A stretch of DNA of 64,000 nucleotides from a virus (Duplodnaviria; Heunggongvirae; Uroviricota; Caudoviricetes): positions 296,228 to 360,227 of the IMG/VR virus record IMGVR_UViG_3300009709_000002, one strand, 5' to 3'. A model generated the notes under the pieces. That model saw only the letters and a list, made by a program, of their open reading frames with translations, was not told the DNA's origin and ran no database searches. The translations under genes and the position numbers were made by a program. This document shows positions 8,417 to 62,444 of this stretch, one piece after another. Positions within the stretch are counted from its first letter, which is position 1. Every line of letters begins with the position of its first letter.

Positions 8417-8979
8417 AGTTCAGCATACTCATCGAGACCAGCATCGAGCATGGCAGATTGGCACGCGACGATGTCACGATCTTTCAAGTGCTTCCTAACG
8501 ATGCCTAACGCAAGCTCCAACCGCGTAGCATGAACGTTGGCGAAGATGATAGCTTCTAGGCGTGGCAGCTTCAGCAATCTCAGCAGGCCGCAATTGAAAT
8601 GGGCTCCATAGTTCAACCCAACAATATACAGCAGCTCTAGATTCTTTAAGCGATCAACGCCTTTTAGCGTTTCCACCTGCAGCCCATGAAGGCTGAGACT
8701 CTTCACCAAGGTAGGAAAGCCTTCCCAATCATTTAAGACAAGAAGCTTCGCCGGTCTGGCCATGATGTCGAGATGGCGTAGGTAAGCCTCACCGAAGGGC
8801 CAGTAGAAGGGATCTTCATTGTTCAGCTTAGGAGACACGATCAAATTATTGATGTGCATGCGAACGTTGTTCTTACTATCAAAGATCGCATCATACCGCT
8901 CGGGTGTTACCGTCGCTTTACCAGGCTCTTGGAGCTCATATTTGTCCAGCCAGTCTAATCCTTCGAGAGCTGTGGTCAT
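8413..8979 (-). CDS. Family-A paralog (GC-richer)
   Basis: C-term CQSAMLDAGLDEYAEL. Confidence 0.8.
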   Translation of the reverse strand: MTTALEGLDWLDKYELQEPGKATVTPERYDAIFDSKNNVRMHINNLIVSPKLNNEDPFYWPFGEAYLRHLDIMARPAKLLVLNDWEGFPTLVKSLSLHGLQVETLKGVDRLKNLELLYIVGLNYGAHFNCGLLRLLKLPRLEAIIFANVHATRLELALGIVRKHLKDRDIVACQSAMLDAGLDEYAEL

Positions 8980-33164: not shown

Positions 33165-33255
33165 GTTCTGGCGGGGCAGCGGGATTCGAACCCTGCTTGT
33201 GTGCTTTGGCATCACTGCGAATGAGCCGCTAATAGTTACCCTATCCCGAATGTCC
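33165..33255 (-). ncRNA. tRNA-like remnant (T-arm gggttcgaatccc plus gccccgCCA 3' end, no matching 5' acceptor)
   Basis: Upstream of the GNAT gene; no canonical cloverleaf found. Confidence 0.3.
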
Positions 33256-33431
33256 AGAGTAACGGATGCCCGCGTCGATGTCGGTCCACCTAGCACAACT
33301 TACGCCAGTAGCAGCTCATGGTGCTCATCCACCATTTTCCCAAACCCGGAACGCCGGCCCGAGCTGCTTCATTACTACCGGAATTTCACCGGTTCTATCG
33401 ACCTTTCCCACAGGTCAGCTGCCCCAAAACT

Positions 33432-38651: not shown

Positions 38652-38741
38652 TGGCGCTGTGAGGTGGACTCGAACCACCTAACTCCCTCGGAACGCCTGC
38701 CCAGATTCCATTGAGGAGCTTTACCGCCTAAGCTACACAGC
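38652..38741 (-). tRNA. type-II tRNA (Ser or Leu; anticodon unresolved)
   Basis: 90 nt; T-arm ggtgg-ttcgagt-ccacc, CCA, long variable arm. Confidence 0.55.
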
Positions 38742-49443: not shown

Positions 49444-50076
49444 TCAGTGCTTTCTGGTATAGACAAGCAGTACGAACTTCTTCAGCTTGTCCTCTTCAGC
49501 CCAGATCTCATCATCTGGGAGATTCTTGCCATCATAGTAGAACGGCTCATCACCGTCCATCTTCAGGTGGCCATGATCCAAGATCATGACTACCTCGTTA
49601 CTCGCGTGGCTACGAGCAATCTTCTTCCATAGCTCAGCACCGCCCTTGAACTGCTTGGTGTCTGAGATGATGGTGTATCCTTTGCTCACCAGTGAATGGT
49701 AGAGGAACGTTCCAAGACCTGCAAACTTGGTCTGCTTAGCGACCTGCACGAGATCAACTTGAAGAACGTTCGGCGAAAACTCACGACGTTCTTCGGTACC
49801 AAGCTGTAAGCTCAGCTTAAACAGCAGCTGGCCAATAACCTGCACACCATCTTCGCCATCATGGCGCTGACCACGAGTGCCGATAATAGCGGTGTCGTGA
49901 TCATCATCTAGGTAAACTTCAACGTTATCTTGCTTGCCCATCAACCTGTACTTGCGTTCTTCAAGCGCCTTGTTGGTCATGAAGTAGACGCTGAACGGCT
50001 CCGCATCTGGATCATCATCCATCTCACGGTTAGAGAGCATCGGCATTTCTGTAAGTAGTAGTTCATCTAGTCTCAT
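49444..50076 (-). CDS. hypothetical protein
   Basis: ORF track. Confidence 0.5.
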   Translation of the reverse strand: MRLDELLLTEMPMLSNREMDDDPDAEPFSVYFMTNKALEERKYRLMGKQDNVEVYLDDDHDTAIIGTRGQRHDGEDGVQVIGQLLFKLSLQLGTEERREFSPNVLQVDLVQVAKQTKFAGLGTFLYHSLVSKGYTIISDTKQFKGGAELWKKIARSHASNEVVMILDHGHLKMDGDEPFYYDGKNLPDDEIWAEEDKLKKFVLLVYTRKH

Positions 50077-50159
50077 CGGTACCTCCTAATGAGAACTATT
50101 TATTGGTTGGCAAAAGACCATCTTACTGTCATTGTATACCAACTCTACTACGTTGTACA

Positions 50160-50792
50160 TCAAAGAATTGCAAACTCATCAAGGTTTGCGTCAATCAGTT
50201 CATTCTGGCATTCAAGAATATCTCTGTCATCTTCATACACATACTTCTTTACTATTCTAAGCGCAACAAATTGATCTTCTTTTGAACCATTATCACATAC
50301 AATGAATTTCAGTTTTGGCGCTTTTAGTAAACTCAACAATCCACATTCTATCTTTATGTCATTAGAAAAATTTAATTGCTGAATTTTAGAAGATGGCTCC
50401 AATTTTAGTGATTTAATTTTGGCTCTCTTAAATTCTATTTGCAAGAAATCAATATTTAAATTACAAAGTAATTTAGCATCATCTATGATACAATTTTCAT
50501 ATCTAATGCCATTACCATGCTCTTCTAAAATATTAAGCCATACGTCATCTGGTACTGGACATTTTGTGATTGCTTTATCTTTGAAATTGAAAAATATTTT
50601 CCAGTATGAAAATTTATCATTATTTTTAGAATTATATGCTTTTACCAGCAAATCATATACTTCATCACCATCAAACTTTTTAAAGTTCATATGTGACTGA
50701 TCAACTGACAATATAACGTGATCTTTAAACCATTGTTTAGTCGATGGAGAATTCCACGCTATTTTTGATTTTGAAATTTCATGTAGTTTCAT
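50160..50792 (-). CDS. Family-A paralog (AT-rich copy)
   Basis: C-term CQNELIDANLDEFAIL. Confidence 0.75.
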   Translation of the reverse strand: MKLHEISKSKIAWNSPSTKQWFKDHVILSVDQSHMNFKKFDGDEVYDLLVKAYNSKNNDKFSYWKIFFNFKDKAITKCPVPDDVWLNILEEHGNGIRYENCIIDDAKLLCNLNIDFLQIEFKRAKIKSLKLEPSSKIQQLNFSNDIKIECGLLSLLKAPKLKFIVCDNGSKEDQFVALRIVKKYVYEDDRDILECQNELIDANLDEFAIL

Positions 50793-51400
50793 AGCTTTGC
50801 GTACTCATCAAGATTTGCATCAATCAGTTCATTCTGGCATTCAAGAATATCTCGGTCGTCTTTCAACAAGTGCTTGTTGATGATTTGAAGCGCTAATTGC
50901 AAGTCTTTCGGGCATGAAGCTGTGCCACCTACTCGGCCAATCGTTTTGCACTTCAAAATACCAAGCAATCCACACTTAACTTTCGGAAAATCTAGTGTTA
51001 GATTATCAATGCCTCCATCTAGCGAACCAAGCTTAAATGTATGAAACTCGCATCGATCCAAGATAAGCAGCTGAGCTATCGGCATTTTATCCCACGTGTC
51101 AATAACTGCACCGATTATGCGCAAACTTTCAAGCCGATTGTTACCTTGCGGCCAAGCTTTAGAATCAAATGGAATTGAGCTGATAGTTTCTTGGTGCATT
51201 ACCAGACAAGCTTTATTGATGTTCTCAATCTCTACCTTGCCATTTTCATATTTGAAAGTTACTCCACGCTCTTTCTCATACGAGATGTCATTACCATCTA
51301 CTTTCTCAGCGGTGCGTGAATCAAGGCCCCAATGCAAGGCGTGCTTTACCCACTCATCACCTACGTTATCTGATTCTTGCAGATATTGTTTGAATTTCAT
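50789..51400 (-). CDS. Family-A paralog
   Basis: C-term CQNELIDANLDEYAKL. Confidence 0.8.
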   Translation of the reverse strand: MKFKQYLQESDNVGDEWVKHALHWGLDSRTAEKVDGNDISYEKERGVTFKYENGKVEIENINKACLVMHQETISSIPFDSKAWPQGNNRLESLRIIGAVIDTWDKMPIAQLLILDRCEFHTFKLGSLDGGIDNLTLDFPKVKCGLLGILKCKTIGRVGGTASCPKDLQLALQIINKHLLKDDRDILECQNELIDANLDEYAKL

Positions 51401-52023
51401 ACCTTAGCCCACTTTTCAAACCCAGCGTCAATTAAATCTGATTGACATTCAATAATGTCTTTGCCTTCTTTGAGGTGTTTATTGACAATCTCAAATGCTT
51501 TCTCTACGTCATTATCAGCTTCATTAAAGCCATGAACGGTCTTGATGTTTTCTGTCTTCATTAGATTAAGAAGACCACACTTGATCTTTACATCTTCAAA
51601 ATTTAGAGAGTTCGTATTGACTGACGGTGGAAACTTAACAGACTCAACCACAGCACCGTTCAAATAAAGCCTAAGAAGTTTTGCTGGTGTGAAAAGCTTC
51701 TTAGGATCTTTCAAAATCCCATTGAAAACTGTTTGATGCTTGACTTGATCGCCAAACACAGCTGTCCAAAGATCTACTGAGAAATCCGGTGGCATTGAAT
51801 ATTCTTCATCCGTTTCATGATAGAATTCCAGAAAGAGCTTACACGGTCCAGAGTTTTCAGGCACGCCTTTATTTAGCGCAGTGCAAATAGCTTCACCAGT
51901 ATAAAGCGGCGTTGATCCATCATTAAATGAGCCAACGTTCACGATAATTGCATGCTTCATGAACCAATCTTCGGCTTTTGGTGATAATGCCCGTTTTGGT
52001 TTTGTTATCTCTGTTAGTTTCAT
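51397..52023 (-). CDS. Family-A paralog
   Basis: C-term CQSDLIDAGFEKWAKV. Confidence 0.8.
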   Translation of the reverse strand: MKLTEITKPKRALSPKAEDWFMKHAIIVNVGSFNDGSTPLYTGEAICTALNKGVPENSGPCKLFLEFYHETDEEYSMPPDFSVDLWTAVFGDQVKHQTVFNGILKDPKKLFTPAKLLRLYLNGAVVESVKFPPSVNTNSLNFEDVKIKCGLLNLMKTENIKTVHGFNEADNDVEKAFEIVNKHLKEGKDIIECQSDLIDAGFEKWAKV

Positions 52024-52126: not shown

Positions 52127-52468
52127 TCAGGTCCAGAGAATGTGTCGATACTTCCAGAGCGTGTCGATATGCCTCAAAAGAGCTGTGTTTGCGATAGAAT
52201 CATATCCGTCACGCTGCTTTTCGACGATTTGATCAATCGCAAAGATTGCTTTCTTGATCTTCTTGTACGTTCGTATGCACCCTTTAGTGTGCTCATAGTC
52301 TACGGCGTCTTTGTTAGTTCTACTCAGGTAGAACTTGAATTGATCATCACCAGCTCGCTCCATGAACTCCTTCGCCATGAGGTAAACGACGTACTCCATG
52401 GAGTTATCTGCTGAATAGAAGAACGCTGGTTTGAGCTCTAGGTTGAAGTACTCGTTGGATACTTTCAT
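52127..52468 (-). CDS. hypothetical protein
   Basis: ORF track. Confidence 0.45.
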   Translation of the reverse strand: MKVSNEYFNLELKPAFFYSADNSMEYVVYLMAKEFMERAGDDQFKFYLSRTNKDAVDYEHTKGCIRTYKKIKKAIFAIDQIVEKQRDGYDSIANTALLRHIDTLWKYRHILWT

Positions 52469-52479
52469 GAGGTAGAAAT

Positions 52480-52506
52480 GACAAACCCAGCGAATATGCT
52501 GGGTTT
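52480..52506. terminator. bidirectional hairpin (aaacccagc-gaatat-gctgggttt flanked by A/T runs) at the 3' end of the tRNA cluster
   Basis: 9-bp stem with T-tract on both strands. Confidence 0.45.
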
Positions 52507-52583
52507 TGGTACACGGTGTCAGACTCGAACTGACATACTCAATCTTGTAAGGATTGTGGACTAACCTCTCTCACCAACCGTGC
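52507..52583 (-). tRNA. tRNA, anticodon loop ctTACaa (Val-UAC-like), atypical D-arm
   Basis: Acceptor gcacggt/accgtgt plus CCA; T-arm gtcag-ttcgagt-ctgac. Confidence 0.5.
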
Positions 52584-52585
52584 GG

Positions 52586-52658
52586 TACCTGGTGACGGGA
52601 TCGAACCGCCGACAATCGCCTTGTAAGGGCGGTGCTCTACCAGCTGAGCTAACCAGGC
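52586..52658 (-). tRNA. tRNA-Val (UAC); no encoded CCA; 2 nt from previous tRNA
   Basis: Canonical D-arm tagctcagctggtagagc; loop ctTACaa. Confidence 0.7.
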
Positions 52659-52664
52659 ATCATA

Positions 52665-52889
52665 TCATTCAACTTCACTGTCACTCGGAAACTCAGGCGT
52701 CTGAGGAGTCGGTGACGTGTAGATGAACTCGACTAAATTCGTCGAAGTTTCACTATAGAACAAAGTCAAGCTGGGATCGAGTGTTGGTGGTTCTGTCACC
52801 GTCGGATCATACCCAACATAATAAACTTGCACTCCGGTAGCAGTGAGATTATCAAGCTGCTGCTTTTGTGCCAGTGTGAAATTGTTCAT
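52665..52889 (-). CDS. hypothetical small protein inside the tRNA cluster
   Basis: GGAGTAAGTT RBS inside a conserved hairpin. Confidence 0.45.
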   Translation of the reverse strand: MNNFTLAQKQQLDNLTATGVQVYYVGYDPTVTEPPTLDPSLTLFYSETSTNLVEFIYTSPTPQTPEFPSDSEVE

Positions 52890-52921
52890 AACTTACTCCA
52901 TTTGATGGAGTATTTATTACT

Positions 52922-52997
52922 TGGCCCCTTGGAGTGGATTTGAACCACCGACAGGAGATGTTCAGTCTCCTACTCTACCAGGCTGAGTTACCGCGGG
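52922..52997 (-). tRNA. tRNA-Phe (GAA)-like
   Basis: Loop ctGAAca; T-loop ttcaaat; CCA; acceptor has 2 mismatches. Confidence 0.5.
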
Positions 52998-53052
52998 ATT
53001 GTAGCACCTGACATAGATTATAGAGGATATCAGGTGACAACGTCTCCTCTTT

Positions 53053-53128
53053 TGGCTCCCCAGGCTGGGCTCGAACCAACGACCATTGCATTAACAGTGC
53101 AACGCTCTACCAACTGAGCTACTGGGGA
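53053..53128 (-). tRNA. tRNA-Asn (GUU)
   Basis: Perfect acceptor tccccag/ctgggga plus gCCA; loop ctGTTaa. Confidence 0.8.
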
Positions 53129-53255
53129 ATTGACTGGTTTCTACGCATTTAAAAGTATCGTAAGGGCTTATCCAGACAGCCTCAACATTAATAGTGAATT
53201 GCAACCAATAAAGCCTACCCCGCAAGGCAGACTACCGTCATCGTCTTATCATCAC

Positions 53256-53331
53256 TGGTGCCCCTTGTCTGATTCGAACAGACCACCTACGCATTACAAG
53301 TGCGTTGCTCTACCAAATGAGCTAAAGGGGC
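53256..53331 (-). tRNA. tRNA-Thr (UGU)
   Basis: Acceptor gcccctt/aaggggc plus aCCA; loop ctTGTaa. Confidence 0.8.
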
Positions 53332-53405
53332 AATGACGTTAGAGTTAAAAGCAATCTGAGTGATTTTTCTATGCGCGAAGTAACTCAGATCTACGCAACT
53401 AACGA

Positions 53406-53480
53406 TGGAGCCCTGCCACGGAATCGAACCGTGTTCGCTGGATTACAAAACCAGTATAATAACCAATATACGAGAAGGGC
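53406..53480 (-). tRNA. tRNA, Thr(UGU)-like loop ttTGTaa, noncanonical D-arm
   Basis: T-arm acgg-ttcgatt-ccgt; CCA. Confidence 0.5.
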
Positions 53481-53523
53481 ATTAAAGGCAGAGATAAAGT
53501 CGAAAAGTGTTTAAGCCTCTTGC

Positions 53524-53600
53524 GAGGTTCGATGGACTTGAACCATCCTTATCGCCAAGATTATTAGTCCCGCGAATTTACCCGATGTAACACTTCACTA
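53524..53600 (-). tRNA. tRNA-like element (perfect T-arm gatgg-ttcaagt-ccatc, no clear acceptor)
   Basis: Partial structure only. Confidence 0.25.
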
Positions 53601-53610
53601 CGCAACTACC

Positions 53611-53685
53611 TGGTGCCCTAGTACGGAATCGAACCGCATTTTCTTGATTACGAAACAAGTGTAATAGCCAGTATACTACAAGGGC
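53611..53685 (-). tRNA. tRNA, loop ttCGTaa (Thr-CGU-like), noncanonical D-arm
   Basis: Acceptor gcccttg/ctagggc plus aCCA. Confidence 0.5.
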
Positions 53686-53689
53686 AATC

Positions 53690-53896
53690 TTAATCTTCAC
53701 CGGGCTTCTTCAATGTGAAGCCCTTATCAATCGCGATACTTTCCAACAGTGCGCAGATAACTTTCATTGCACCAAGCGGACCAGATCCTTTCGGATAGTA
53801 AGCGAGATAATACTCTTGCAACTGTTCTTCTGTGTCGAACTGGCCTACAAAATCAGGCAGAAAACGAGGAAAAGAACGTTCAATTTTCTTTTTCAT
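53690..53896 (-). CDS. hypothetical small protein inside the tRNA cluster
   Basis: ORF track. Confidence 0.4.
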   Translation of the reverse strand: MKKKIERSFPRFLPDFVGQFDTEEQLQEYYLAYYPKGSGPLGAMKVICALLESIAIDKGFTLKKPGED

Positions 53897-53956
53897 GATT
53901 TACTCCAAGTTGTAGATGGTACTATTCTATCATCATTTCATCTCAAAGTAAATTAG

Positions 53957-54030
53957 TGGTCAAGGATAACGGAATCGAACCGTTGACTCTTCGCTCCAAA
54001 GGAAGTATGTTACCATTACATCAATCCAAG
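53957..54030 (-). tRNA. tRNA-Pro (UGG)-like
   Basis: D-arm atgt-aatggtaa-acat; loop ttTGGag; CCA. Confidence 0.5.
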
Positions 54031-54112
54031 ATAGACACAGAGTTAAAGTCGACGTGAGCTGTTGTAAGCAAATGGAAGATTAGCGATGAAACTCACTTCT
54101 ACGCAACTGTGT

Positions 54113-54186
54113 TGGTCACCGTGGCTGGAATCGGACCAGCGATTCGACCATCCGAGGGTCGTATGTTACCACTACATTACACGGGG
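54113..54186 (-). tRNA. tRNA-Pro (CGG)
   Basis: D-arm atgt-agtggtaa-acat; stem cgacc/ggtcg; loop ctCGGat; CCA. Confidence 0.65.
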
Positions 54187-54579
54187 ATTGCTGAATCTAC
54201 GGATAGGTTCCCTCTGTTCCGGGAGTCGTATTTATCGTAGCCTTCAACTTACAAACTTGAGAATGGTTTGTTCAACCAAGCTTGGTATTCACCAGGCTTC
54301 CATTCTTTGGCTTTACACTCTTCATCAAATTTCTTCAGACGTTCATTCAATCTTTTGAAATCTTCTTCAGTAGGTTCAAACTTCTTTGCTGCTTCAATCA
54401 ATTCACAAACTGTCATAGATCTAAGTCCGAGATTGGATCTTCAGCTTTACCGCTACCCCAACATCTACTACATGCTCTTGGATCGCAGTTAACTAATTCT
54501 TCATAAGTTGGCTCATACTGATCGCCAGGCTCATAACCAGAACCTTCACATCGTTCACACTTATCAACTTTATTCATGA

Positions 54580-54653
54580 TGGCAGGCCACCAGGGAATCG
54601 AACCCCGGTCCGCAGTTTTGGAGACTGTTATGTTACCACTACACTAGTGACCC
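54580..54653 (-). tRNA. tRNA-Trp (CCA)
   Basis: Loop ctCCAaa; T-arm cgggg-ttcgatt-ccctg; gCCA. Confidence 0.75.
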
Positions 54654-54788
54654 GTTGTACTTCAATGATAGCAGCTAGATCCACTTTAACAGTGTTGCCC
54701 GGGACGTGCTGATCTGACCCAACTACTATTATTGAAGTTGCTGGTTACAAGTTCCAGCGATGCCTCTATCTTTGGCCCTGATTTTCTA

Positions 54789-55016
54789 CTACGCGTTAAC
54801 GGCTGGGAAGTCGCCGCCAACGTTATCTGCTTCATCCTGTCCGTCATAGCCGCATGTTGCACATGAAACATCATCGGACGGATTTACATCTGTCGGCATC
54901 GGAGCACCACAGTTAGCACAGATTTCATCACCGTCATTATTGAACGAATCTCTGTTCAACATGCGCCGCTGATCTTTTGCCGACTGAAGAGGAGTCATTA
55001 ACTCTTTAAGCTTCAT
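54789..55016 (-). CDS. small zinc-ribbon protein (CxxC..CxxC), paralog of 55026..55226
   Basis: MKLKELMTPLQSAKD...CANCG...CATCGYDG. Confidence 0.5.
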   Translation of the reverse strand: MKLKELMTPLQSAKDQRRMLNRDSFNNDGDEICANCGAPMPTDVNPSDDVSCATCGYDGQDEADNVGGDFPAVNA

Positions 55017-55025
55017 GATTCATCC

Positions 55026-55226
55026 TCAAGGATTCGGTGCGGCATAATCGCCTGCCACATCTTCCGAACCCGGTTCTCCATCATATCCACACTCAGTACA
55101 TGCACCTTCATCATCCATCGTATCTTGACCACATTGTGGACAAGGTCCGGTTTGTTCATCTCGAGAAAGCATGCGATAACGATCTTTCGTCGATTGAAGC
55201 GGAATATTCAGCTCATGTAACTTCAT
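55026..55226 (-). CDS. small zinc-ribbon protein, paralog of 54789..55016
   Basis: MKLHELNIPLQSTKD...CPQCG...CTECGYDG. Confidence 0.5.
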   Translation of the reverse strand: MKLHELNIPLQSTKDRYRMLSRDEQTGPCPQCGQDTMDDEGACTECGYDGEPGSEDVAGDYAAPNP

Positions 55227-55240
55227 GTTTCATCCTTAGT

Positions 55241-55315
55241 TGGCGGTCCGTAAGGGGATCGAACCCTCATGTCCGGATAGACAGTCCAGCATAATGACCA
55301 TTATATGAACGAACC
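55241..55315 (-). tRNA. tRNA-Asp (GUC)-like
   Basis: Loop ctGTCta; acceptor ggttcgt/acggacc; CCA. Confidence 0.5.
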
Positions 55316-55346
55316 AGCGATGAAACTATTTATACAACTCAAAACT

Positions 55347-55420
55347 TGGTGGGTCTGCCTGGAATTGAACCAGGAATCTCCGGCGGCAATCGCGCAGTGT
55401 GTTGCTTACACTACAGACCC
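55347..55420 (-). tRNA. tRNA, anticodon unresolved (atypical loop cgATTgc)
   Basis: Perfect acceptor gggtctg/cagaccc plus aCCA; T-arm cctgg-ttcaatt-ccagg. Confidence 0.5.
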
Positions 55421-55583
55421 AAGGAATGATTGACGAGTCACTCGGATTTGCACCCAGGTTTCACGCTTTGCTCGCGTGCGTCCTTCTACTAGACGATAAC
55501 CCTCACTACTTTTCGCTGGTTGGCGCCAACTTTGCGTAGTGCAATCATAATTTTACATCCGTGCGCCAACACTTCAGTAAAAT

Positions 55584-55656
55584 TGGTGGAGCTGCCTGGA
55601 ATTGAACCAGGAATCTTCAGCCTAAGCGGCCGATGTGTTGCTTACACCACAACTCC
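55584..55656 (-). tRNA. tRNA, anticodon unresolved (loop cgCTTag); paralog of 55347..55420
   Basis: Same D and T arms as its neighbour; CCA. Confidence 0.5.
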
Positions 55657-55663
55657 AAAATAT

Positions 55664-55882
55664 TTAGTGAACTAACATCACCTGAACGACTGGTGTTTCT
55701 GAACCATCATTCTCTGTCCAGAAACGAATAGCGAAGCAATCTACTGCGTAAGCTTCACCACCGTCGATCGCTTCAACGAGTAGCTCTTTCTTCTGATCAA
55801 ACTGTTGAAGATGTTTGATAGCTTCTTCAACCGTCATTTTCTTCACCTTGTTGCTCACGAAGAATATCCATTGCGAAATCAT
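55664..55882 (-). CDS. hypothetical small protein
   Basis: ORF track. Confidence 0.4.
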   Translation of the reverse strand: MISQWIFFVSNKVKKMTVEEAIKHLQQFDQKKELLVEAIDGGEAYAVDCFAIRFWTENDGSETPVVQVMLVH

Positions 55883-56066
55883 AACCTGACCAGTTATCTA
55901 CACCAGCACATTCAAGCGCAGTGAGCTTTGCTGAATCTTCACAAAGACTGTTATACTCTTTCTTTGTGATAGTTACCATCTCTTCAGTTGGTGCAACCAT
56001 GTTGTTGTCCTCAGTTTGAATCAGTAAGAGGATTCTAAATCATTTCAACAACATCGTAAATTTATT

Positions 56067-56140
56067 TGGTAGTCCGTTACGGAATCGAACCGTCTTCATT
56101 CGCTAATCGGGCGAAGACCTTACCAATAGATGACCGGACC
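56067..56140 (-). tRNA. tRNA-Ile (GAU)-like
   Basis: Stem ttcgc/gcgaa; loop ccGATta; CCA. Confidence 0.5.
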
Positions 56141-56225
56141 ATTGTAGTACTAGAGTTAAAGTCGAAAAGAGAAATTTTACGTGCTCGGCCATTGAGCTAC
56201 AGCGCCATTAAATCAACTACAAGTT

Positions 56226-56300
56226 TGGCGACGCTGGCTGGGATTCGAACCCTGCATCCACGCGATTCGGAGTCGGAGTAACTCTTCTCTACGCAACTAA
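56226..56300 (-). ncRNA. tRNA 3'-half-like fragment (T-arm plus acceptor plus CCA, no 5' half found)
   Basis: cagggttcgaatccc...gtcgCCA with no complementary 5' acceptor. Confidence 0.3.
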
Positions 56301-56303
56301 TAC

Positions 56304-56378
56304 TGGCGCCGCGGAGGGGGAATGATCCCCTACTTCATCCGTGACAGGGATGCATGCAGACCACTACATCACCGCGGC
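56304..56378 (-). tRNA. tRNA-Asp (GUC)
   Basis: Perfect acceptor gccgcgg/ccgcggc plus gCCA; stem catcc/ggatg; loop ctGTCac. Confidence 0.75.
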
Positions 56379-56388
56379 AAAATAATTC

Positions 56389-56465
56389 TGGTCCCTGCGC
56401 TTGGACTCGAACCAAGGACCTATGCGTTATCAACACATTGCTCTAACCAGCTGAGCTACGCAGGG
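56389..56465 (-). tRNA. tRNA-Ile (GAU)
   Basis: Canonical D-arm tagctcagctggttagagc; loop ttGATaa; aCCA. Confidence 0.8.
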
Positions 56466-56744
56466 ATTTTATGAAGCACTCATACAATTCCGTCGTGTCA
56501 TCAGGGTGCGCTTCAAGTTACACCAATATGAATGAGATGATGAGTCCCTAACTGTTAACCAAGTCGACGTTGCATAATACTCATCGGAAATATGCAGGCC
56601 CATAGGCTCTGTTACAGCCCAGCCGAAGCCGGTAAAACTAGTAAGTTTCTGCTCCACGACCTGGGAACGATCCAGGCTAATCGTGATTAACAGTCACGCG
56701 GTTGCCACCAAGGCGCCTCTCGTGGAGCAGAAACTTCTAATCTT

Positions 56745-56819
56745 TGGTACCCGCAGTTGGTATCGAGCCAACCTCTGAGCCTTATCAAGACTCTGCTAAT
56801 CCGTCTCAGCTATACGGGC
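56745..56819 (-). tRNA. tRNA, loop ttGATaa (Ile-GAU-like), atypical D-arm
   Basis: T-arm gttgg-ctcgata-ccaac; aCCA. Confidence 0.5.
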
Positions 56820-56830
56820 ATTGTACTAAT

Positions 56831-56908
56831 TGGCTCCGGTTCAGGGAATCGAACCCCGCTCTATGCGCATTAACAGTGCGCCGCTTACACCTTGCTTGCT
56901 CAACCGGA
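56831..56908 (-). tRNA. tRNA-Asn (GUU)-like, atypical D-arm
   Basis: Perfect acceptor tccggtt/aaccgga plus gCCA; stem gcgca/tgcgc; loop ctGTTaa. Confidence 0.55.
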
Positions 56909-56975
56909 ATCGGTCGCCGAGAATTTTATACTTGATAGCTCGGCAGTCAAGTCGTGGCAGCTTCTACCACTGTTT

Positions 56976-57047
56976 TGGACCCACCGGACAGAGTCGAACT
57001 GTCTACATCTCGTTCGTAGCGAGTTGGCCTAATCCCTAGGCGGTGAG
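56976..57047 (-). tRNA. tRNA-Arg (ACG)
   Basis: Loop ctACGaa; T-arm gacag-ttcgact-ctgtc; tCCA. Confidence 0.6.
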
Positions 57048-57052
57048 ATACT

Positions 57053-57130
57053 TGGTGGGTGCGCTGGGATTCGAACCCAGGTCAGCCGGATTAAGAGTCC
57101 GGTATAATAAAGCCGCTATACGACACACCC
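57053..57130 (-). tRNA. tRNA-Lys (CUU)
   Basis: Stem ccgga/tccgg; loop ctCTTaa; aCCA. Confidence 0.6.
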
Positions 57131-57141
57131 AAAATAAAACT

Positions 57142-57215
57142 TGGTGGGACTGGAGGGTACTGGCCCCTCTTCTACGAGGTAAAAGCTCGTTGCTTCACTT
57201 TAAAGCTTCAATCCC
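57142..57215 (-). tRNA. tRNA-Lys (UUU), unusual T-loop
   Basis: D-arm gctt-taaagtg-aagc; stem acgag/ctcgt; loop ctTTTac; aCCA. Confidence 0.6.
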
Positions 57216-57226
57216 ATTCTACATCT

Positions 57227-57302
57227 TGGCGGGGGTGCTAGGTTTCGAACCTAATCCTAGTGAGTCAGAGTCACTCATGCAAACCAATTACACCTCACCC
57301 CT
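57227..57302 (-). tRNA. tRNA-Gln (CUG)
   Basis: Stem agtga/tcact; loop ctCTGac; gCCA. Confidence 0.55.
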
Positions 57303-57313
57303 ACTGTACTTCT

Positions 57314-57388
57314 TGGTAGTCCTCCAGGGAATCGAACCCTGTCACCTGCGGTCAAAGCGCAGTATCTGCTCCAATCGATTTGAGGACA
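57314..57388 (-). tRNA. tRNA-Gln (UUG)
   Basis: Stem ctgcg/cgcag; loop ctTTGac; T-arm caggg-ttcgatt-ccctg. Confidence 0.6.
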
Positions 57389-57390
57389 GG

Positions 57391-57462
57391 TGCCGCCGAT
57401 TGGTAACGATCCAACCTCTTGGGTGTTTCAAACCCACGCTAATCCATCTCAGCTACCGCGGC
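57391..57462 (-). tRNA. tRNA-Phe (GAA)-like; no encoded CCA; unusual T-loop
   Basis: Acceptor gccgcgg/cggcggc; stem tgggt/accca; loop ttGAAac. Confidence 0.5.
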
Positions 57463-57474
57463 ATCTATAAATCT

Positions 57475-57551
57475 TGGGGTGAATGAGGGGAATCGAACCC
57501 CCACCGAGATGTTCACAGCATCCCATGCAGAACCACTACACTACATCCACC
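57475..57551 (-). tRNA. tRNA-His (GUG) with encoded G-1
   Basis: Loop ctGTGaa; extra 5' G before acceptor gtggatg/cattcac; cCCA. Confidence 0.65.
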
Positions 57552-57586
57552 ATTGAAGTAGAGCCCGAAGACTCTACCTTGAAACT

Positions 57587-57901
57587 TTACACCTTGTCTG
57601 GATACTTTTCATCCAGCCAGTCGATATAAGCTAGAGGGCTCATACCTGGCTCACAGTTGTGAATCTTTGTGAAGCCATTTTCCTTTGTGATCAACGATTC
57701 AGTTCCTGGAACTGCACCGCGATATTTCTGTCCGTACTGGCCTTCAATTTGACCAGTTGCTGGATTTAAATCTCCCCAGAAAGCCTTCTTACCTGCGAGA
57801 GGTTCTACGAAATAAGTCTTACCAGTGCGCTGCGATACAACGATAAAGCGGCCGGTTTCATCTGTATTTGTGAGAAACCTTGCCCGTAGGTCGGGGTCCA
57901 T
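57587..57901 (-). CDS. hypothetical protein
   Basis: ORF track. Confidence 0.45.
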   Translation of the reverse strand: MDPDLRARFLTNTDETGRFIVVSQRTGKTYFVEPLAGKKAFWGDLNPATGQIEGQYGQKYRGAVPGTESLITKENGFTKIHNCEPGMSPLAYIDWLDEKYPDKV

Positions 57902-57929
57902 ATCAAGTCCTATTCAAGTTAAGTACAGC

Positions 57930-58005
57930 TGGTGCAGCCTCCCGGTTTCGATCCGGGCTTTCTACCTTTTCAGAGTAGCACTTTCACCAGATTAGTTTAG
58001 GCTGC
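57930..58005 (-). tRNA. tRNA-Phe (GAA)-like
   Basis: Perfect acceptor gcagcct/aggctgc plus aCCA; T-arm cccgg-atcgaaa-ccggg; loop ctGAAaa. Confidence 0.55.
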
Positions 58006-58024
58006 ATTCATTACATCTACTACT

Positions 58025-58099
58025 TGGCATCGATGAGGGGAGTCGAACCCCCGTTTCCAGATTGAAAGTCTAGCGTCCTAACCATTAGACGACATCGAT
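58025..58099 (-). tRNA. tRNA-Glu (UUC)
   Basis: Perfect acceptor atcgatg/catcgat plus gCCA; loop ctTTCaa. Confidence 0.7.
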
Positions 58100-58113
58100 A
58101 TTGTTAGACAATA

Positions 58114-58189
58114 TGGAGTCTCCAGCCGGGCTCGAACCGTGCATTCCAACCTTGAAAGGGTTGTGTCCTGACCTTTAGACGATGGAGAC
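58114..58189 (-). tRNA. tRNA-Glu (UUC), tandem duplicate
   Basis: Perfect acceptor gtctcca/tggagac; stem caacc/ggttg; loop ctTTCaa. Confidence 0.7.
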
Positions 58190-58221
58190 GTTGTAACTAA
58201 ATCCGGCCCCGGAAATCAATC

Positions 58222-58249
58222 AGGGGAACCATTTTAGTGGTTCCCCTGC
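58222..58249. terminator. 11-bp hairpin caggggaacca-ttttag-tggttcccctg at the upstream edge of the tRNA cluster
   Basis: Perfect inverted repeat. Confidence 0.35.
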
Positions 58250-58273
58250 TTTACGATTCACGAAGATTAGAAC

Positions 58274-58507
58274 TTAGTTCTTAACCTCTCGTTCGCCGAA
58301 AGCAAGGGACATATCATCACGAATCTCAACCTCATTATTCTTTCGAATAAAGGTCTGTGTTGGCTGTTGATGCCATTTCACAGAGGGTTGAGGGAAATTC
58401 GTAAACATGATAGTCAATGTCCTTTCGGTTAATTTGATGAATCTATTTATAAAGCAGGTGGAAAACACCACCAAAATCATGGACGGATCGGTAAGGAATT
58501 GAACCAA
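58274..58507 (-). CDS. hypothetical small protein
   Basis: ORF track. Confidence 0.35.
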   Translation of the reverse strand: MVQFLTDPSMILVVFSTCFINRFIKLTERTLTIMFTNFPQPSVKWHQQPTQTFIRKNNEVEIRDDMSLAFGEREVKN

Positions 58508-61262: not shown

Positions 61263-62444
61263 TTAACCGTCGTCACGAAGCAAGAATGCTTCCATCGCAC
61301 GTTGGCACGCCGAAATTCTTGCAGCTTGCAAGAGAATACCAACATGAGGTCCTTGCTCACCAGGAGCTACTACATCAGCTGTTATCAGAGCCGCGATTTT
61401 TGCCGAATACAACACCAAATCTGATGTCATTTCAGGAACTTCGCCAAGCAATTCATACAGCAAGAGCGGATTCAGGTTAGTGAACCAGACCGGAGTGCGC
61501 CAGACGCCGATGAACTTCAACGTCTTGTGAAGACCGACAGCAGTCATGCCGTTCGCCAGCTCGTCACCGATGCTGATGAGCATGTTCGCATCATTGATCG
61601 CGCTGCTCTGCATCTTGATGTCGGCGAAATCAGCATTGCGATTGAACGCCGAGATCACCGCAAGCATACACGAAACAAACTCGGACTCCGACAGCTCATC
61701 TTCATGATCTTCGATAAGCTGAATCGAGTCGAAGATCATAGCAATCCGCGAGTATTTCATGTCACCAAGCCACTTCTTGAAGAAGCTCACGGTCCGCACG
61801 GCGTCGACCAAGAACAGCGTGTGGAAGAAATTCATCGGGTGCGGTTCAATGAACGCACGGGTGATTTCTTTCCAGTAGCGCTCGTGAGAAACTTCATCGA
61901 GCTCACCAGATTTGATGACTTCCTTGCAAAGCTCGATCGTGTCTGGTGCGATCGTGAAGTCGAATCTGGCAGCGAAACGTGCAAGCCGCAAGACACGCAG
62001 CGGATCTTCCGAGAAAGCTTCCGATGTGTGTCGCAAAATGCCGCTATGGAGATCATCTTCACCACCGAACGGGTCGATCAGTGTGGTCAAACCTTTGTTG
62101 GGAGCTGGGATGATCGTTCCATCTTGCTTCACGACGGAAACTTCATACGCCATCGCGTTGATAGTCAAGTCGCGGCGGCGCAGATCATCTTCAATCGTCA
62201 CGCTCGAGTCAAAAGCCGTCTCGAAGCCGTGATAGCCGACGCCGACCTTGCGTTCAACACGAGCCAACGCCCATTCATCGCCAGTTGTAGGGTGAAGGAA
62301 CACTGGGAAATCTGCACCAACCTGCTTGAAGCCGAAGCTCACCATTTCTTCAGGTGTCGAGCCGACAACGACATAGTCGACGTCTTTCGGCTTGCGGGAC
62401 AACAGCATGTCCCGCACAGCTCCACCAACAACATATACTTTCAT
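61263..62444 (-). CDS. cca: tRNA nucleotidyltransferase (CCA-adding enzyme), class II
   Basis: GGAVRDMLL...DVDYVV head motif and RRRDLTINA motif B. Confidence 0.8.
   Translation of the reverse strand: MKVYVVGGAVRDMLLSRKPKDVDYVVVGSTPEEMVSFGFKQVGADFPVFLHPTTGDEWALARVERKVGVGYHGFETAFDSSVTIEDDLRRRDLTINAMAYEVSVVKQDGTIIPAPNKGLTTLIDPFGGEDDLHSGILRHTSEAFSEDPLRVLRLARFAARFDFTIAPDTIELCKEVIKSGELDEVSHERYWKEITRAFIEPHPMNFFHTLFLVDAVRTVSFFKKWLGDMKYSRIAMIFDSIQLIEDHEDELSESEFVSCMLAVISAFNRNADFADIKMQSSAINDANMLISIGDELANGMTAVGLHKTLKFIGVWRTPVWFTNLNPLLLYELLGEVPEMTSDLVLYSAKIAALITADVVAPGEQGPHVGILLQAARISACQRAMEAFLLRDDG

What the first reader, a model, noticed from the sequence alone, without database searches (positions are those of the whole stretch)
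53341..56300. Recurrent short elements between tRNA genes: TAGAGTTAAAGTCGA and CTTCTACGCAACT
AGAGTTAAAGTCGA-like boxes occur at 53341, 53490, 54040 and 56152. (C)TACGCAACT occurs at 53391, 53598, 54098 and 56290, each just downstream (minus sense) of a tRNA 3' end. Two box-containing segments end in tRNA 3'-half-like fragments (53524-53600, 56226-56300). They may be processing signals, remnants of tRNA duplication by recombination, or small-RNA promoters.
Basis: seen in the sequence. Interest (0 to 1): 0.5.

Follow-up and report, generated by a model that had tools for sequence, protein, structure and literature searches.

The report
Box-flanked tRNA-like RNA modules between phage tRNAs
The two recurring short motifs are the conserved ends of four stem-closed RNA modules that fill spacers in a large phage tRNA gene array; some carry a rearranged tRNA-like domain like that of bacterial Y RNAs, so they look like a new family of small RNAs rather than simple signals or debris.

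Summary
On the minus (tRNA-sense) strand, AGTTGCGTAG occurs 4 times against 0.04 expected, each copy 3-5 nt after a tRNA CCA. TCGACTTTAACTCT-like boxes lie 8-12 nt before the next tRNA.

The two boxes are the 5' and 3' ends of one unit. Four modules (A 54031-54112, B 53481-53610, C 53332-53405, D 56141-56303) each fill one inter-tRNA spacer.

Six more modules were found in three related metagenomic contigs. Across all ten, a helix just inside the boxes shows compensatory changes (6 of 9 pairs), while the apical part varies:
- a plain hairpin in A and C;
- T arm plus a GNRA-capped mini-acceptor hairpin in B;
- a circularly permuted tRNA-like domain in D (T arm, 7-bp acceptor stem with encoded GCCA, D arm).

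Module D and its positional counterpart best match Rfam YrlA (Y RNA-like), far below threshold.

Best reading: tRNA-derived structured small RNAs, co-transcribed with the tRNAs and released by tRNA-processing enzymes. Their function is unknown.

They are not demonstrated Y RNAs. The Ro60-binding motif is absent and no Ro60 gene was found nearby. Promoter, terminator and ribozyme readings found no support. A cis-acting processing role and duplication debris remain rivals.

The parts
56141..56303 (-). Module D: the whole spacer between tRNA-Asp (56304-56378) and the tRNA-like gene x (56058-56140).
56288..56298 (-). D box of module D (AGTTGCGTAGA). It starts 5 nt after the CCA of tRNA-Asp.
56282..56287 (-). 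Module D closing helix, 5' strand (GAAGAG). It pairs with 56167-56171 (CTCTT).
56237..56255 (-). Module D T arm (GCAGGGTTCGAATCCCAGC).
   Evidence: (aligned to the YrlA T arm)
56226..56236 (-). Module D acceptor-like 3' strand CAGCGTC, followed by discriminator G and an encoded CCA.
56207..56225 (-). Module D loop of the acceptor-like stem (19 nt). It ends in AAT, the same -3..-1 leader found before most tRNAs of the array, so it is a likely RNase P site (inferred).
56200..56206 (-). Module D acceptor-like 5' strand GGCGCTG. It forms 7 bp with 56230-56236, one of them a G-U pair.
56183..56197 (-). Module D D arm (GCTCAATGGCCGAGC).
56152..56165 (-). U box of module D (TCGACTTTAACTCT). It ends 11 nt before tRNA-like x.
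54031..54112 (-). Module A, between tRNA-Pro(cgg) and tRNA-Pro(tgg). D box 54098-54108; closing helix 54090-54096 with 54054-54060; 29-nt pyrimidine-rich loop; U box 54039-54052.
53481..53610 (-). Module B, between tRNA-Thr(cgt) and tRNA-Thr(tgt). D box 53597-53607; closing helix 53589-53595 with 53505-53511; long hairpin 53552-53575; T arm 53531-53547; GNRA-capped hairpin CCTC-GCAA-GAGG 53516-53527; U box 53490-53503.
53332..53405 (-). Module C, between two tRNA-Thr(tgt) genes. D box 53390-53400; 8-bp closing helix 53383-53390 with 53354-53361; 21-nt loop; degenerate U box 53341-53354.
55316..55346 (-). Probable decayed module remnant in the spacer between tRNA-Asn(att) and tRNA-Asp. It shares AGTTTCATCGCT with module A but has no intact D box.
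   Evidence: read from the sequence
53130..53146 (-). Partial D-box-like stretch (GCGTAGAAACCAGTCAA) just upstream of tRNA-Asn. Possibly a remnant.
52507..58189 (-). The tRNA array that hosts the modules: 26 ARAGORN tRNAs plus Rfam-only tRNA-like genes, interspersed with small ORFs. Terminator-like hairpins lie at 58221-58248 and 52483-52506.
61263..62444 (-). Phage-encoded CCA-adding enzyme (PolyA_pol head domain), upstream of the array on the same strand. It is a candidate enzyme for the CCA end of module D (inferred).

Best explanation
The two motifs are the conserved 5' and 3' ends of a family of tRNA-derived, stem-closed RNA modules embedded in the phage's polycistronic tRNA array.

Each module has four parts:
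- D box AGUUGCGUAGA;
- a covarying closing helix, with a conserved GAGUUAC-WUCG stretch spanning its 5' strand and the start of the apical part;
- a variable apical domain;
- U box UCGNYYUUWWCUCU.

Shown: the boxes, their fixed placement next to tRNA ends, the closing helix, and the tRNA-like apical domains. The apical domains are of three kinds: hairpin only; T arm plus a capped mini-acceptor hairpin; or a permuted T arm, acceptor stem and D arm, as in YrlA Y RNAs and two-piece tmRNAs.

Inferred: the modules are co-transcribed with the tRNAs. They are released as 60-150-nt stable RNAs when RNase P cuts at the 5' end of the downstream tRNA and the 3'-maturation nucleases trim the upstream tRNA. 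The box stem clamps and protects the ends. Module D, with a 7-bp acceptor stem, an encoded GCCA and a loop ending in the array's usual AAU leader, would be cut again by RNase P. That would give a two-piece, anticodon-less, tRNA-shaped RNA, as documented for M. smegmatis YrlA.

The invariant unpaired UGCG of the D box and the pyrimidine-rich 3' tail are most likely a protein or nuclease recognition platform. The tRNA-like head would engage tRNA-binding factors. The biological role (tether, decoy or regulator) is not established.
For: - Enrichment and placement.
- Ten modules in four sequence sets. The four window modules are also intact in 98-99.7% identical variant contigs. Two more are in the syntenic relative L295, one in L296 and three in L297.
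- Closing helix: 81% of cells are paired, against 41-47% when the partners are slid, and 0 of 500 shuffles reach this. In the closing helix, 6 of 9 pairs have changes on both sides.
- Substitutions in near-identical variants keep pairing: 53568 A>G and 53558 T>C in the module B hairpin, and 53355 A>G in the module C helix.
- tRNA-like heads. Module D hits YrlA model positions 23-87 at 20.2 bits, E 0.053 for the 266 nt searched. The positional counterpart in L295 has a very different sequence but the same order (T arm, GNRA-capped acceptor hairpin, D arm) and hits YrlA at 23.8 bits, E 0.0026. L297 module 1 hits permuted tmRNA at 19.8 bits and YrlA at 15.9 bits. L297 module 2 contains a full tRNA fold at 45.9 bits.
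- Module B and its L296 counterpart both keep the T arm and a CCTC-GNRA-GAGG hairpin, with GCAA in one and GAAA in the other.
- Precedents (PMC4201824): YrlA has the same T, AS, D order. M. smegmatis YrlA is cut by RNase P and receives CCA. D. radiodurans Yrn2 is co-transcribed with a tRNA. Each species studied has one tRNA-like Y RNA and one long-hairpin Y RNA.
Against: - No expression data exist; the RNA ends and stability are inferred.
- Folding energies of the four window modules are no better than shuffled sequence (z from +0.18 to -1.19).
- Rfam scores are far below the YrlA gathering score of 69 bits, and the E-values refer to very small searches.
- Only the closing helix is supported. 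The outer AGUU/AACU pairing is not.
- Overall nucleotide conservation of the modules between relatives (65-80%) is no higher than for a neighbouring protein gene (73-79%) and lower than for the tRNAs (87-97%).
- Modules are gained, lost or swapped between relatives. L295 has no Pro-Pro module, and it has a C-type module where the window has B. No single module is therefore indispensable.
- The family was found only in one sparse lineage.
Confidence: 0.5

Rival explanations
1. Cis-acting processing or insulating spacers. The box stem pairs the 3' trailer of one tRNA with the 5' leader of the next. It serves only to guide endonucleolytic separation (RNase E, RNase III or RNase P) or to keep near-identical neighbouring tRNAs from misfolding together. 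The excised piece has no role of its own.
For: The boxes sit at fixed short distances from tRNA ends. In the window, three of four modules separate isoacceptor pairs (Pro-Pro, Thr-Thr, Thr-Thr), as does L295 Ile-Ile. The D box resembles the array's generic short spacer, CCA-AGWWGTASA-AT. The stem plus conserved single-stranded tails would suit a nuclease site.
Against: Most tRNAs of the array, including other isoacceptor pairs (Gln-Gln, Glu-Glu, Val-Val), do without a module, and L295 has Pro-Pro directly adjacent. A pure processing stem does not explain the maintained tRNA-like heads: the T arm and capped acceptor hairpin kept between window B and L296, and the T, AS, D order kept between window D and L295 despite 56% identity.
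Confidence: 0.2
2. Non-functional debris of tRNA gene birth and death. Tandem duplication, partial deletion and recombination left tRNA fragments. The shared flanks reflect common descent and gene conversion among spacers.
For: The array contains paralogous tRNAs sharing T arms and several degenerate tRNA-like genes. Decayed module remnants exist at 55316-55346 and 53130-53146. Modules are present, absent or swapped between relatives. The permuted head of module D looks like 'tail of tRNA n, a normal spacer, head of tRNA n+1'. Thermodynamic z-scores are unremarkable.
Against: There are compensatory double changes in 6 of 9 closing-helix pairs. The D box is 11/11 identical in two L297 modules although L297 shares no detectable protein similarity with this window. 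GNRA-capped mini-acceptor hairpins (GCAA, GAAA, GTAA) are not what random tRNA truncation gives. Making a permuted head flanked by a complementary helix needs several coordinated events, yet it is seen in at least two different sequences (window D and L297 module 1).
Confidence: 0.15
3. Bona fide Y RNAs. The box stem is the binding site of a Ro60/Rsr protein (phage or host), and the tRNA-like head tethers an effector such as PNPase.
For: The best Rfam family for two modules is YrlA. The architecture matches Y RNAs: terminal stem with a conserved 5' strand, a variable head, and tRNA-like and long-hairpin paralogues side by side (PMC4201824). A YUAY element lies at nt 21-24 in 8 of 10 modules; S. 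Typhimurium YrlA has it at nt 22-25 (bioRxiv 10.1101/312249). Phages with Ro60 and Y RNAs are known (PMC4201824, PMC12135203). A Ro60-like gene next to a tRNA stretch was noted in phage Bas63 (PMC11482910).
Against: The GNCGAAN0-1G / CGAA motif is absent from the 5' region of all ten modules. No TROVE gene is present among window ORFs of 250 aa or more or in the L295/L300 gene tables. The 695-aa conserved ORF near the array is not Ro60-like. The YrlA criterion of an rsr gene within about 4 kb is therefore not met. Scores are far below the gathering threshold.
Confidence: 0.12
4. Transcription signals (promoter and/or terminator) or a self-cleaving ribozyme that trims the upstream tRNA 3' end, like HDV-like theta ribozymes found downstream of phage tRNAs.
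For: The position immediately after a tRNA 3' end, with conserved blocks around a variable insert, is reminiscent of ribozymes with a variable stem. Module C has a hairpin followed by a U-rich run.
Against: No sigma-70-like promoter or intrinsic-terminator match lies on any module. No ribozyme family was matched at E up to 10 in the module regions. By inspection, no P1/P1.1-type complement to the D box and no hammerhead core is conserved across copies. The closing stems are AU-rich with very large loops.
Confidence: 0.04

Closest known systems
YrlA-type bacterial and phage Y RNAs (Rfam RF02553; Chen et al. 2014, PMC4201824; structure in bioRxiv 10.1101/312249)
   Same: A terminal stem is formed by the two ends. 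The head is a tRNA-like domain in the permuted order T arm, acceptor-like stem-loop, D arm. The acceptor-like stem is closed by a loop in some members and is 7 bp and RNase-P-cleavable, with a CCA end, in others (M. smegmatis). A YUAY element lies about 22 nt from the 5' end. tRNA-like and plain-hairpin paralogues sit side by side. Co-transcription with a tRNA is known (D. radiodurans Yrn2).
   Different: There is no GNCGAA / CGAA Ro60-binding motif; the conserved 5' block is AGUUGCGUAGA-N3-GAGUUAC. No rsr/TROVE gene was found nearby. Scores of 16-24 bits fall far short of the 69-bit threshold. The modules sit inside tRNA spacers at fixed distances from tRNA ends. The heads are very heterogeneous, including none at all.
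Two-piece (circularly permuted) tmRNA genes (Rfam RF04321, tmRNA_permuted)
   Same: The gene order is T arm, acceptor 3' strand with CCA, an excised loop, then the acceptor 5' strand. L297 module 1 gives its best Rfam hit to this family. Window module D has the same layout.
   Different: Only about 45 nt follow the 5' acceptor strand, so there is no tag reading frame and no pseudoknots. There is no G3-U70 alanine identity pair.
Phage T4 stable RNAs C and D (species 1 and 2; rnaC, rnaD) in the T4 tRNA operon
   Same: These are small stable non-tRNA RNAs encoded inside a phage tRNA cluster. They are directly abutted to tRNA genes, have tRNA-like T-arm and acceptor features, and their function is unknown.
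   Different: No sequence similarity and no D or U boxes. They are single copies at the end of the T4 cluster, not repeated modules between tRNAs.
Circularly permuted tRNA genes of Cyanidioschyzon merolae and other algae (from my own knowledge)
   Same: The 3' half lies upstream of the 5' half, with the leader and trailer pairing into a helix.
   Different: Those mature into complete tRNAs through a circular intermediate and a BHB-specific splicing endonuclease. Here no anticodon loop can be reconstituted, and no such enzyme is known in bacteria or phages.

Membership tests
YrlA / Y RNA-like (RF02553) | tRNA-like domain in the order T arm, acceptor-like stem-loop, D arm, closed by an anticodon-stem-like helix | tested here: met
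   Met for window module D, L295 7146-7287 and L297 module 1. Partly met for module B and its L296 counterpart, which have T arm and capped hairpin but no D arm. Not met for modules A and C.
YrlA / Y RNA-like (RF02553) | Score reaches Rfam's gathering threshold (69 bits) | tested here: not met
   20.2, 23.8 and 15.9 bits. Only model positions 23-87 or 30-81 aligned; the model's terminal stem region did not align.
YrlA / Y RNA-like (RF02553) | GNCGAAN0-1G (CGAA) Ro60-binding motif near the 5' end | tested here: not met
   A regular-expression search over all ten modules finds no GNCGAAN0-1G. CGAA occurs only inside T loops or apical parts. The D box has UGCGUAG at the comparable place.
YrlA / Y RNA-like (RF02553) | Encoded within about 4 kb of, and on the same strand as, an rsr (Ro60/TROVE) gene | tested here: not met
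   No TROVE hit among window ORFs of 250 aa or more. The 695-aa ORF is not Ro60-like. No TROVE gene appears in the L295/L300 gene tables. The rest of the roughly 360-kb genome could not be read.
YrlA / Y RNA-like (RF02553) | Bound by the Ro60/Rsr protein | not testable with these tools
   Needs RIP or EMSA experiments.
Permuted (two-piece) tmRNA | Permuted tRNA-like domain: T arm, acceptor 3' strand with CCA, loop, acceptor 5' strand | tested here: met
   Window module D and L297 module 1 (19.8 bits against a 47-bit threshold).
Permuted (two-piece) tmRNA | Tag reading frame with pseudoknots in the coding piece, and a G3-U70 pair | tested here: not met
   Only about 45 nt lie between the 5' acceptor strand and the next tRNA. 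Position 3-70 is C-G in window D and G-C in L297 module 1. ARAGORN calls no tmRNA.
Canonical tRNA gene or pseudogene | Cloverleaf in normal order scoring at least 29 bits with the Rfam tRNA model, or called by ARAGORN | tested here: not met
   No tRNA hit inside any window module at E up to 10. The exception is in a relative: the L297 module 2 head scores 45.9 bits.
Self-cleaving ribozymes (HDV-like/theta, hammerhead, twister, pistol, hatchet) | Match to the family's conserved core and fold | tested here: not met
   No ribozyme family at E up to 10. By inspection no conserved P1 complement or CUGAUGA/GAAA core. Theta ribozymes may not be in Rfam, so that part rests on inspection only.
Sigma-70 promoter / intrinsic terminator | -35/-10 hexamers, or a GC-rich hairpin followed by a T run | tested here: not met
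   None of the 7 promoter-like and 9 terminator-like sites in 52400-58400 lies on a module.

The most novel reading that the evidence does not exclude
The modules are a new class of phage-encoded tRNA mimics. They would be matured by RNase P and the phage's own CCA-adding enzyme into anticodon-less RNAs, some of them two-piece and tRNA-shaped, carried on a conserved box stem. They would act in trans, either as Y-RNA-like tethers for a still unrecognised Ro60-like or other RNA-quality-control protein, or as decoys for host tRNA-targeting defence enzymes.
Probability: 0.15. Interest if true: 0.75.

Novelty: new variant of a known kind. Interest (0 to 1): 0.55.

Why it matters
Large phages carry tRNA arrays whose non-tRNA content is mostly ignored. 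T4's RNAs C and D have had no assigned function since they were first described. A repeated, box-flanked module family with permuted tRNA-like heads would show that such arrays also encode families of tRNA mimics. It gives concrete, testable molecules with predicted ends, a predicted RNase P site and a CCA end. It also bears on the suggestion that some genes annotated as tRNAs in phages are really Y-RNA-like partners of Ro60-type proteins (PMC11482910). For annotation, these spacers and the tRNA-like fragments in them should not be called tRNA pseudogenes by default.

Tried and rejected
1. IMG/VR scans with 14-base patterns and a 17-base pattern gave only chance hits. None had tRNAs nearby or both boxes together.
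2. The genome-contig scan gave one chance hit in a coding region.
3. The 51 IMG/VR loci carrying a homologue of the array's 104-aa ORF contain no modules. The family is lineage-restricted.
4. Megablast and blastn against annotated phages found no relative. They matched only tRNA-Thr or tRNA-Met fragments.
5. An outer helix AGUU/AACU, or AGUUG/CGACU, is predicted by RNAfold for some copies. It is not kept in relatives and shows no covariation.
6. An alternative pairing of GAGUUA with the UAACUC of the U box is perfect in modules C and D, but the changes in B, L295, L296 and L297 are not compensated (inspection of the alignment).
7. A mobile-element or intron reading was considered, with U box, tRNA, D box as an insert in a split tRNA. 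It was rejected. Only one tRNA (53406-53480) is flanked by both boxes, its outer flanks are not complementary, and no matching tRNA halves lie outside it.
8. The 695-aa ORF at 46399-48486 was tested as a hidden Ro60. It has no Pfam hit in the local copy and no PDB sequence hit. The AlphaFold model (pLDDT 81) matches only TerD-like domains.
9. T4 rnaC and rnaD have no sequence relation to the modules.
10. Homologues of the CCA-adding enzyme close enough to be this lineage sit on contigs of only 3-4 kb and were not pursued.


Full report
**Context.**
- The window comes from a large phage with no close relative among 50,697 deposited phage genomes. Only tRNA-sized matches were found.
- An identical protein in the public collection lies on a 360,227-bp contig, probably the source genome.
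- ARAGORN finds 30 tRNA genes, all on the minus strand; 26 form an array from 58189 down to 52507.
- Rfam adds a few tRNA-like genes that ARAGORN missed: 57145-57215, 56070-56140 and 38655-38741.
- A CCA-adding enzyme gene lies upstream on the same strand, at 61263-62444.
- Terminator-like hairpins lie at both ends of the array.
- All sequences below are given in tRNA sense, i.e. as the minus strand.

**The observation.**
Its 10-mer AGTTGCGTAG occurs four times on one strand, against 0.04 expected; 0 of 100 shuffles reach four.
There are two exact copies, one with a single mismatch, and a degenerate fourth.
- Each D box begins 3-5 nt after the CCA of a tRNA. Each U box ends 8-12 nt before the next tRNA.
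It is also incomplete:
  - the conserved 5' block is AGTTGCGTAGA-N3-GAGTTAC-WTCG;
  - the boxes always come as a D...U pair bounding one spacer.
- This defines four modules:

| Module | Window coordinates | Flanking genes |
|---|---|---|
| A | 54031-54112 | tRNA-Pro to tRNA-Pro |
| B | 53481-53610 | tRNA-Thr to tRNA-Thr |
| C | 53332-53405 | tRNA-Thr to tRNA-Thr |
| D | 56141-56303 | tRNA-Asp to tRNA-like x |

**Relatives.**
- Exact-pattern scans of IMG/VR and of 185,579 species genomes gave only chance hits.
- 51 jumbo-phage loci sharing a 104-aa array ORF have no modules.
- Looking up the 68-aa ORF between modules A and B found the same phage (L290) and four contigs 98-99.7% identical to it. 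It also found two diverged relatives, with 81% and 77% amino-acid identity.
- L295 is syntenic with the window. It carries a module between two tRNA-Ile genes, at the position of module D, and a C-type module after tRNA-Thr(cgt). It has none between its two tRNA-Pro genes.
- L296 carries a B-type module.
- A 19-base pattern scan of metagenome contigs found L297. It has three modules between Leu, Ser and Trp tRNAs. L297 shares no detectable protein similarity with this window. It may simply correspond to a genome region outside the window.
- This gives ten modules in total.

**Structure.**
- I aligned the 5' and 3' parts of the ten modules, replacing the variable middle by N. I then counted pairs for three candidate helices.
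- Overall, 81% of cells are paired, against 41-47% with slid partners. 0 of 500 shuffles reach the observed pairing or covariation score.
- The closing helix runs from the last base of the D box, through N3 and GAG, to the bases just before the U box. It has changes on both sides in 6 of 9 pairs. Examples are GTGAG/CTCAC, AAGTG/CACTT, CTGAG/CTCAG, AAGAG/CTCTT, TCGAG/CTCG and TTAAAGA/TCTTTAA.
- A lower helix, GYAGA with TCGNY, is weakly supported, mostly by one-sided changes that preserve pairing.
- The outermost AGTT/AACT pairing is not supported.
- UGCG in the D box is invariant in all ten modules and is apparently unpaired.
- In the near-identical variants, three of the five substitutions inside modules preserve pairs.
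- Single-sequence folding energies are not better than shuffled sequence. The case for structure rests on comparison, not thermodynamics.

**The variable heads.**
- Modules A and C, and the C-type module in L295, are plain hairpins. The loop of A is pyrimidine-rich.
- Module B and its L296 counterpart contain three elements: a long hairpin that differs in sequence but keeps its pairing, a T arm, and a 4-bp hairpin capped by a GNRA tetraloop (GCAA or GAAA).
- Module D contains, in this order:
  - a T arm (56237-56255);
  - an acceptor 3' strand CAGCGTC followed by G and CCA (56226-56236);
  - a 19-nt loop ending in AAT;
  - the complementary 5' strand GGCGCTG (56200-56206);
  - TA;
  - a D arm (56183-56197).

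  This is a circularly permuted tRNA-like domain.
- Among 4,227 Rfam families, module D's best match is YrlA (Y RNA-like): 20.2 bits, E 0.053 for the 266 nt searched.
- The module at the same position in L295 is only 56% identical in the head. It still has a T arm, a 6-bp acceptor hairpin capped by GTAA, and a D arm, and again best matches YrlA (23.8 bits, E 0.0026).
- L297 module 1 has a perfect 7-bp acceptor stem with A-CCA and a 14-nt loop. It best matches permuted tmRNA (19.8 bits), then YrlA (15.9 bits).
- L297 module 2 holds a whole tRNA fold in normal order (45.9 bits).
- The constant part of the family is therefore the box stem, and the heads are tRNA-derived and diverse.

**Comparison with known systems.**
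- Chen et al. (PMC4201824) describe YrlA Y RNAs as follows:
  - a stem formed by the two ends, carrying a 5' GNCGAAN0-1G motif for Ro60/Rsr;
  - a tRNA-like domain ordered V, T arm, acceptor-like stem-loop, D arm;
  - M. smegmatis YrlA has a 7-bp acceptor stem, is cut by RNase P and gains CCA;
  - D. radiodurans Yrn2 is co-transcribed with tRNA-Asp;
  - each species studied has a tRNA-like Y RNA and a long-hairpin Y RNA;
  - 22 phages carry YrlA next to Ro60.
- The S. Typhimurium YrlA structure paper places a conserved YUAY at nt 22-25 (bioRxiv 10.1101/312249). 8 of the 10 modules have YUAY at nt 21-24.
- The defining Ro60 features are missing here:
  - GNCGAAN0-1G occurs in none of the ten modules;
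  - no TROVE protein is found among the window's ORFs of 250 aa or more or in the gene tables of the relatives;
  - the conserved 695-aa ORF near the array, tested as a possible hidden Ro60, has only a TerD-like match.
- The modules therefore share their layout with YrlA but cannot be filed as YrlA.
- Two-piece tmRNA shares the permuted acceptor layout. The modules lack its tag frame, pseudoknots and G3-U70 pair.
- T4 RNAs C and D share the genomic context but no sequence.
- A preprint notes a Ro60-like protein next to the tRNA stretch of phage Bas63 and guesses that some of its 'tRNAs' are Y RNAs (PMC11482910). Phage phiLo Ro60 binds Y-like RNAs through a CGAA bulge (PMC12135203).

**Most likely mechanism.**
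- The following steps are inferred, not shown.
- The array is transcribed as polycistronic precursors.
- RNase P cuts at the 5' end of the downstream tRNA. Almost all leaders in the array end in AAU or similar.
- 3' maturation of the upstream tRNA frees the module's 5' end. What remains is an RNA clamped by the box stem.
- Module D, and L297 module 1, should be cut once more by RNase P in the acceptor loop and trimmed to the encoded CCA. This would give a two-piece tRNA-shaped RNA without an anticodon arm.
- The invariant single-stranded UGCG and the pyrimidine-rich 3' tail are candidate recognition sites for a protein or a nuclease.

**Rivals.**
- *A purely cis-acting processing or insulating role.* It fits the placement, and the fact that three window modules separate isoacceptor pairs. 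It does not explain the maintained tRNA-like heads, and most tRNA junctions lack a module.
- *Neutral debris of tRNA duplication.* It fits the decayed remnants (55316-55346, 53130-53146), the gain, loss and swapping between relatives, and the modest overall conservation. It does not fit the compensatory changes, the GNRA-capped hairpins, or the intact boxes in L297.
- *Promoter or terminator.* No site lies on a module.
- *Self-cleaving ribozyme.* No family matches, and no conserved core is seen.

**Verdict.**
- It is best described as a new, lineage-restricted variant of tRNA-mimic small RNAs of the YrlA or two-piece-tmRNA type, embedded in a phage tRNA array. Its function is unproven.
- Interest is moderate. 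The family is small and no expression data exist. It does yield sharply testable predictions.

Noticed in passing
window 33169-33425 (minus strand): A 257-nt element starts with GGGGCAG and ends with a T arm (GCAGGGTTCGAATCCCGC), then CTGCCCC-G-CCA, giving a perfect 7-bp acceptor stem. It lies in an intergenic gap and contains a short frame ending ...DEHHELLLA-stop. It looks like a tmRNA-like or large tRNA-like RNA. ARAGORN (also at lowered thresholds) and Rfam (E up to 1) do not call it, and position 3-70 is G-C, not G-U.
   Followed up: partly
window 56058-56140 (minus strand): A tRNA-like gene directly after module D is missed by ARAGORN and scores 28.6 bits, just under Rfam's 29-bit tRNA threshold. 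Its anticodon loop is CCGAUUA (C at position 33). Its counterpart in L295 (7288-7363) is called tRNA-Ile(gat).
   Followed up: partly
window 53957-54030 and 54113-54186 (minus strand): By eye, tRNA-Pro(tgg) has two U-U mismatches at acceptor positions 2-71 and 3-70, and tRNA-Pro(cgg) has a C-U mismatch at 2-71. Both still score 44-53 bits as tRNA.
   Followed up: no
window 55347-55420 and 55584-55656 (minus strand): Two paralogous odd tRNAs are called Asn(att) and Lys(ctt), each with the anticodon at position 31. They are 88% identical over a 43-nt stretch that includes the T arm. The syntenic relative L295 has a suppressor-type tRNA (anticodon UUA) at 8367-8439 in the same part of the array.
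   Followed up: no
window 52507-58189 (minus strand), all tRNA junctions: Most tRNA leaders end in AAT (or AT) at positions -3 to -1. Many short spacers read CCA-AGWWGTASA-AT, which resembles the D box. The modules look like expansions of this generic spacer.
   Followed up: partly
window 46399-48486 (minus strand): A 695-aa protein is conserved at 40-68% identity in hundreds of large phages (Kuttervirus-like, phiCbK-like, RSL1 and others) and some myxobacteria. It belongs to PF26675 / phrog_1735 and has no known function. The AlphaFold model (pLDDT 81) matches only TerD-like domains.
   Followed up: partly
L295 11127-11184 and L296 566-625: In both relatives the spacer between the two tRNA-Thr(tgt) genes is a different conserved element made of two hairpins: GGGAG...CTCCC, and GCGTT...AACGC versus GCGAT...ATCGC. 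The second shows a compensatory change. The window has module C at this position.
   Followed up: no
L292 602-907 versus window 54252-54255; L294 versus window 53134-53189: The near-identical variant contigs differ from the window by a 306-nt insertion just upstream of tRNA-Pro(cgg) and by a 56-nt deletion between tRNA-Thr and tRNA-Asn. The array is structurally polymorphic in nature.
   Followed up: no
window 49444-52023 (minus strand): Four tandem paralogous ORFs of 203-210 aa lie just downstream of the tRNA array. They share a C-terminal motif of the form ...DILECQNELIDANLDE(F/Y)A... No function was assigned.
   Followed up: no
window 55827-56000 (minus strand): A 57-aa ORF right after tRNA-like x matches PHROG families annotated as host RecBCD nuclease inhibitor (T7 gp5.9-like). 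A sigma-70-like promoter match lies at 56032-56060.
   Followed up: no
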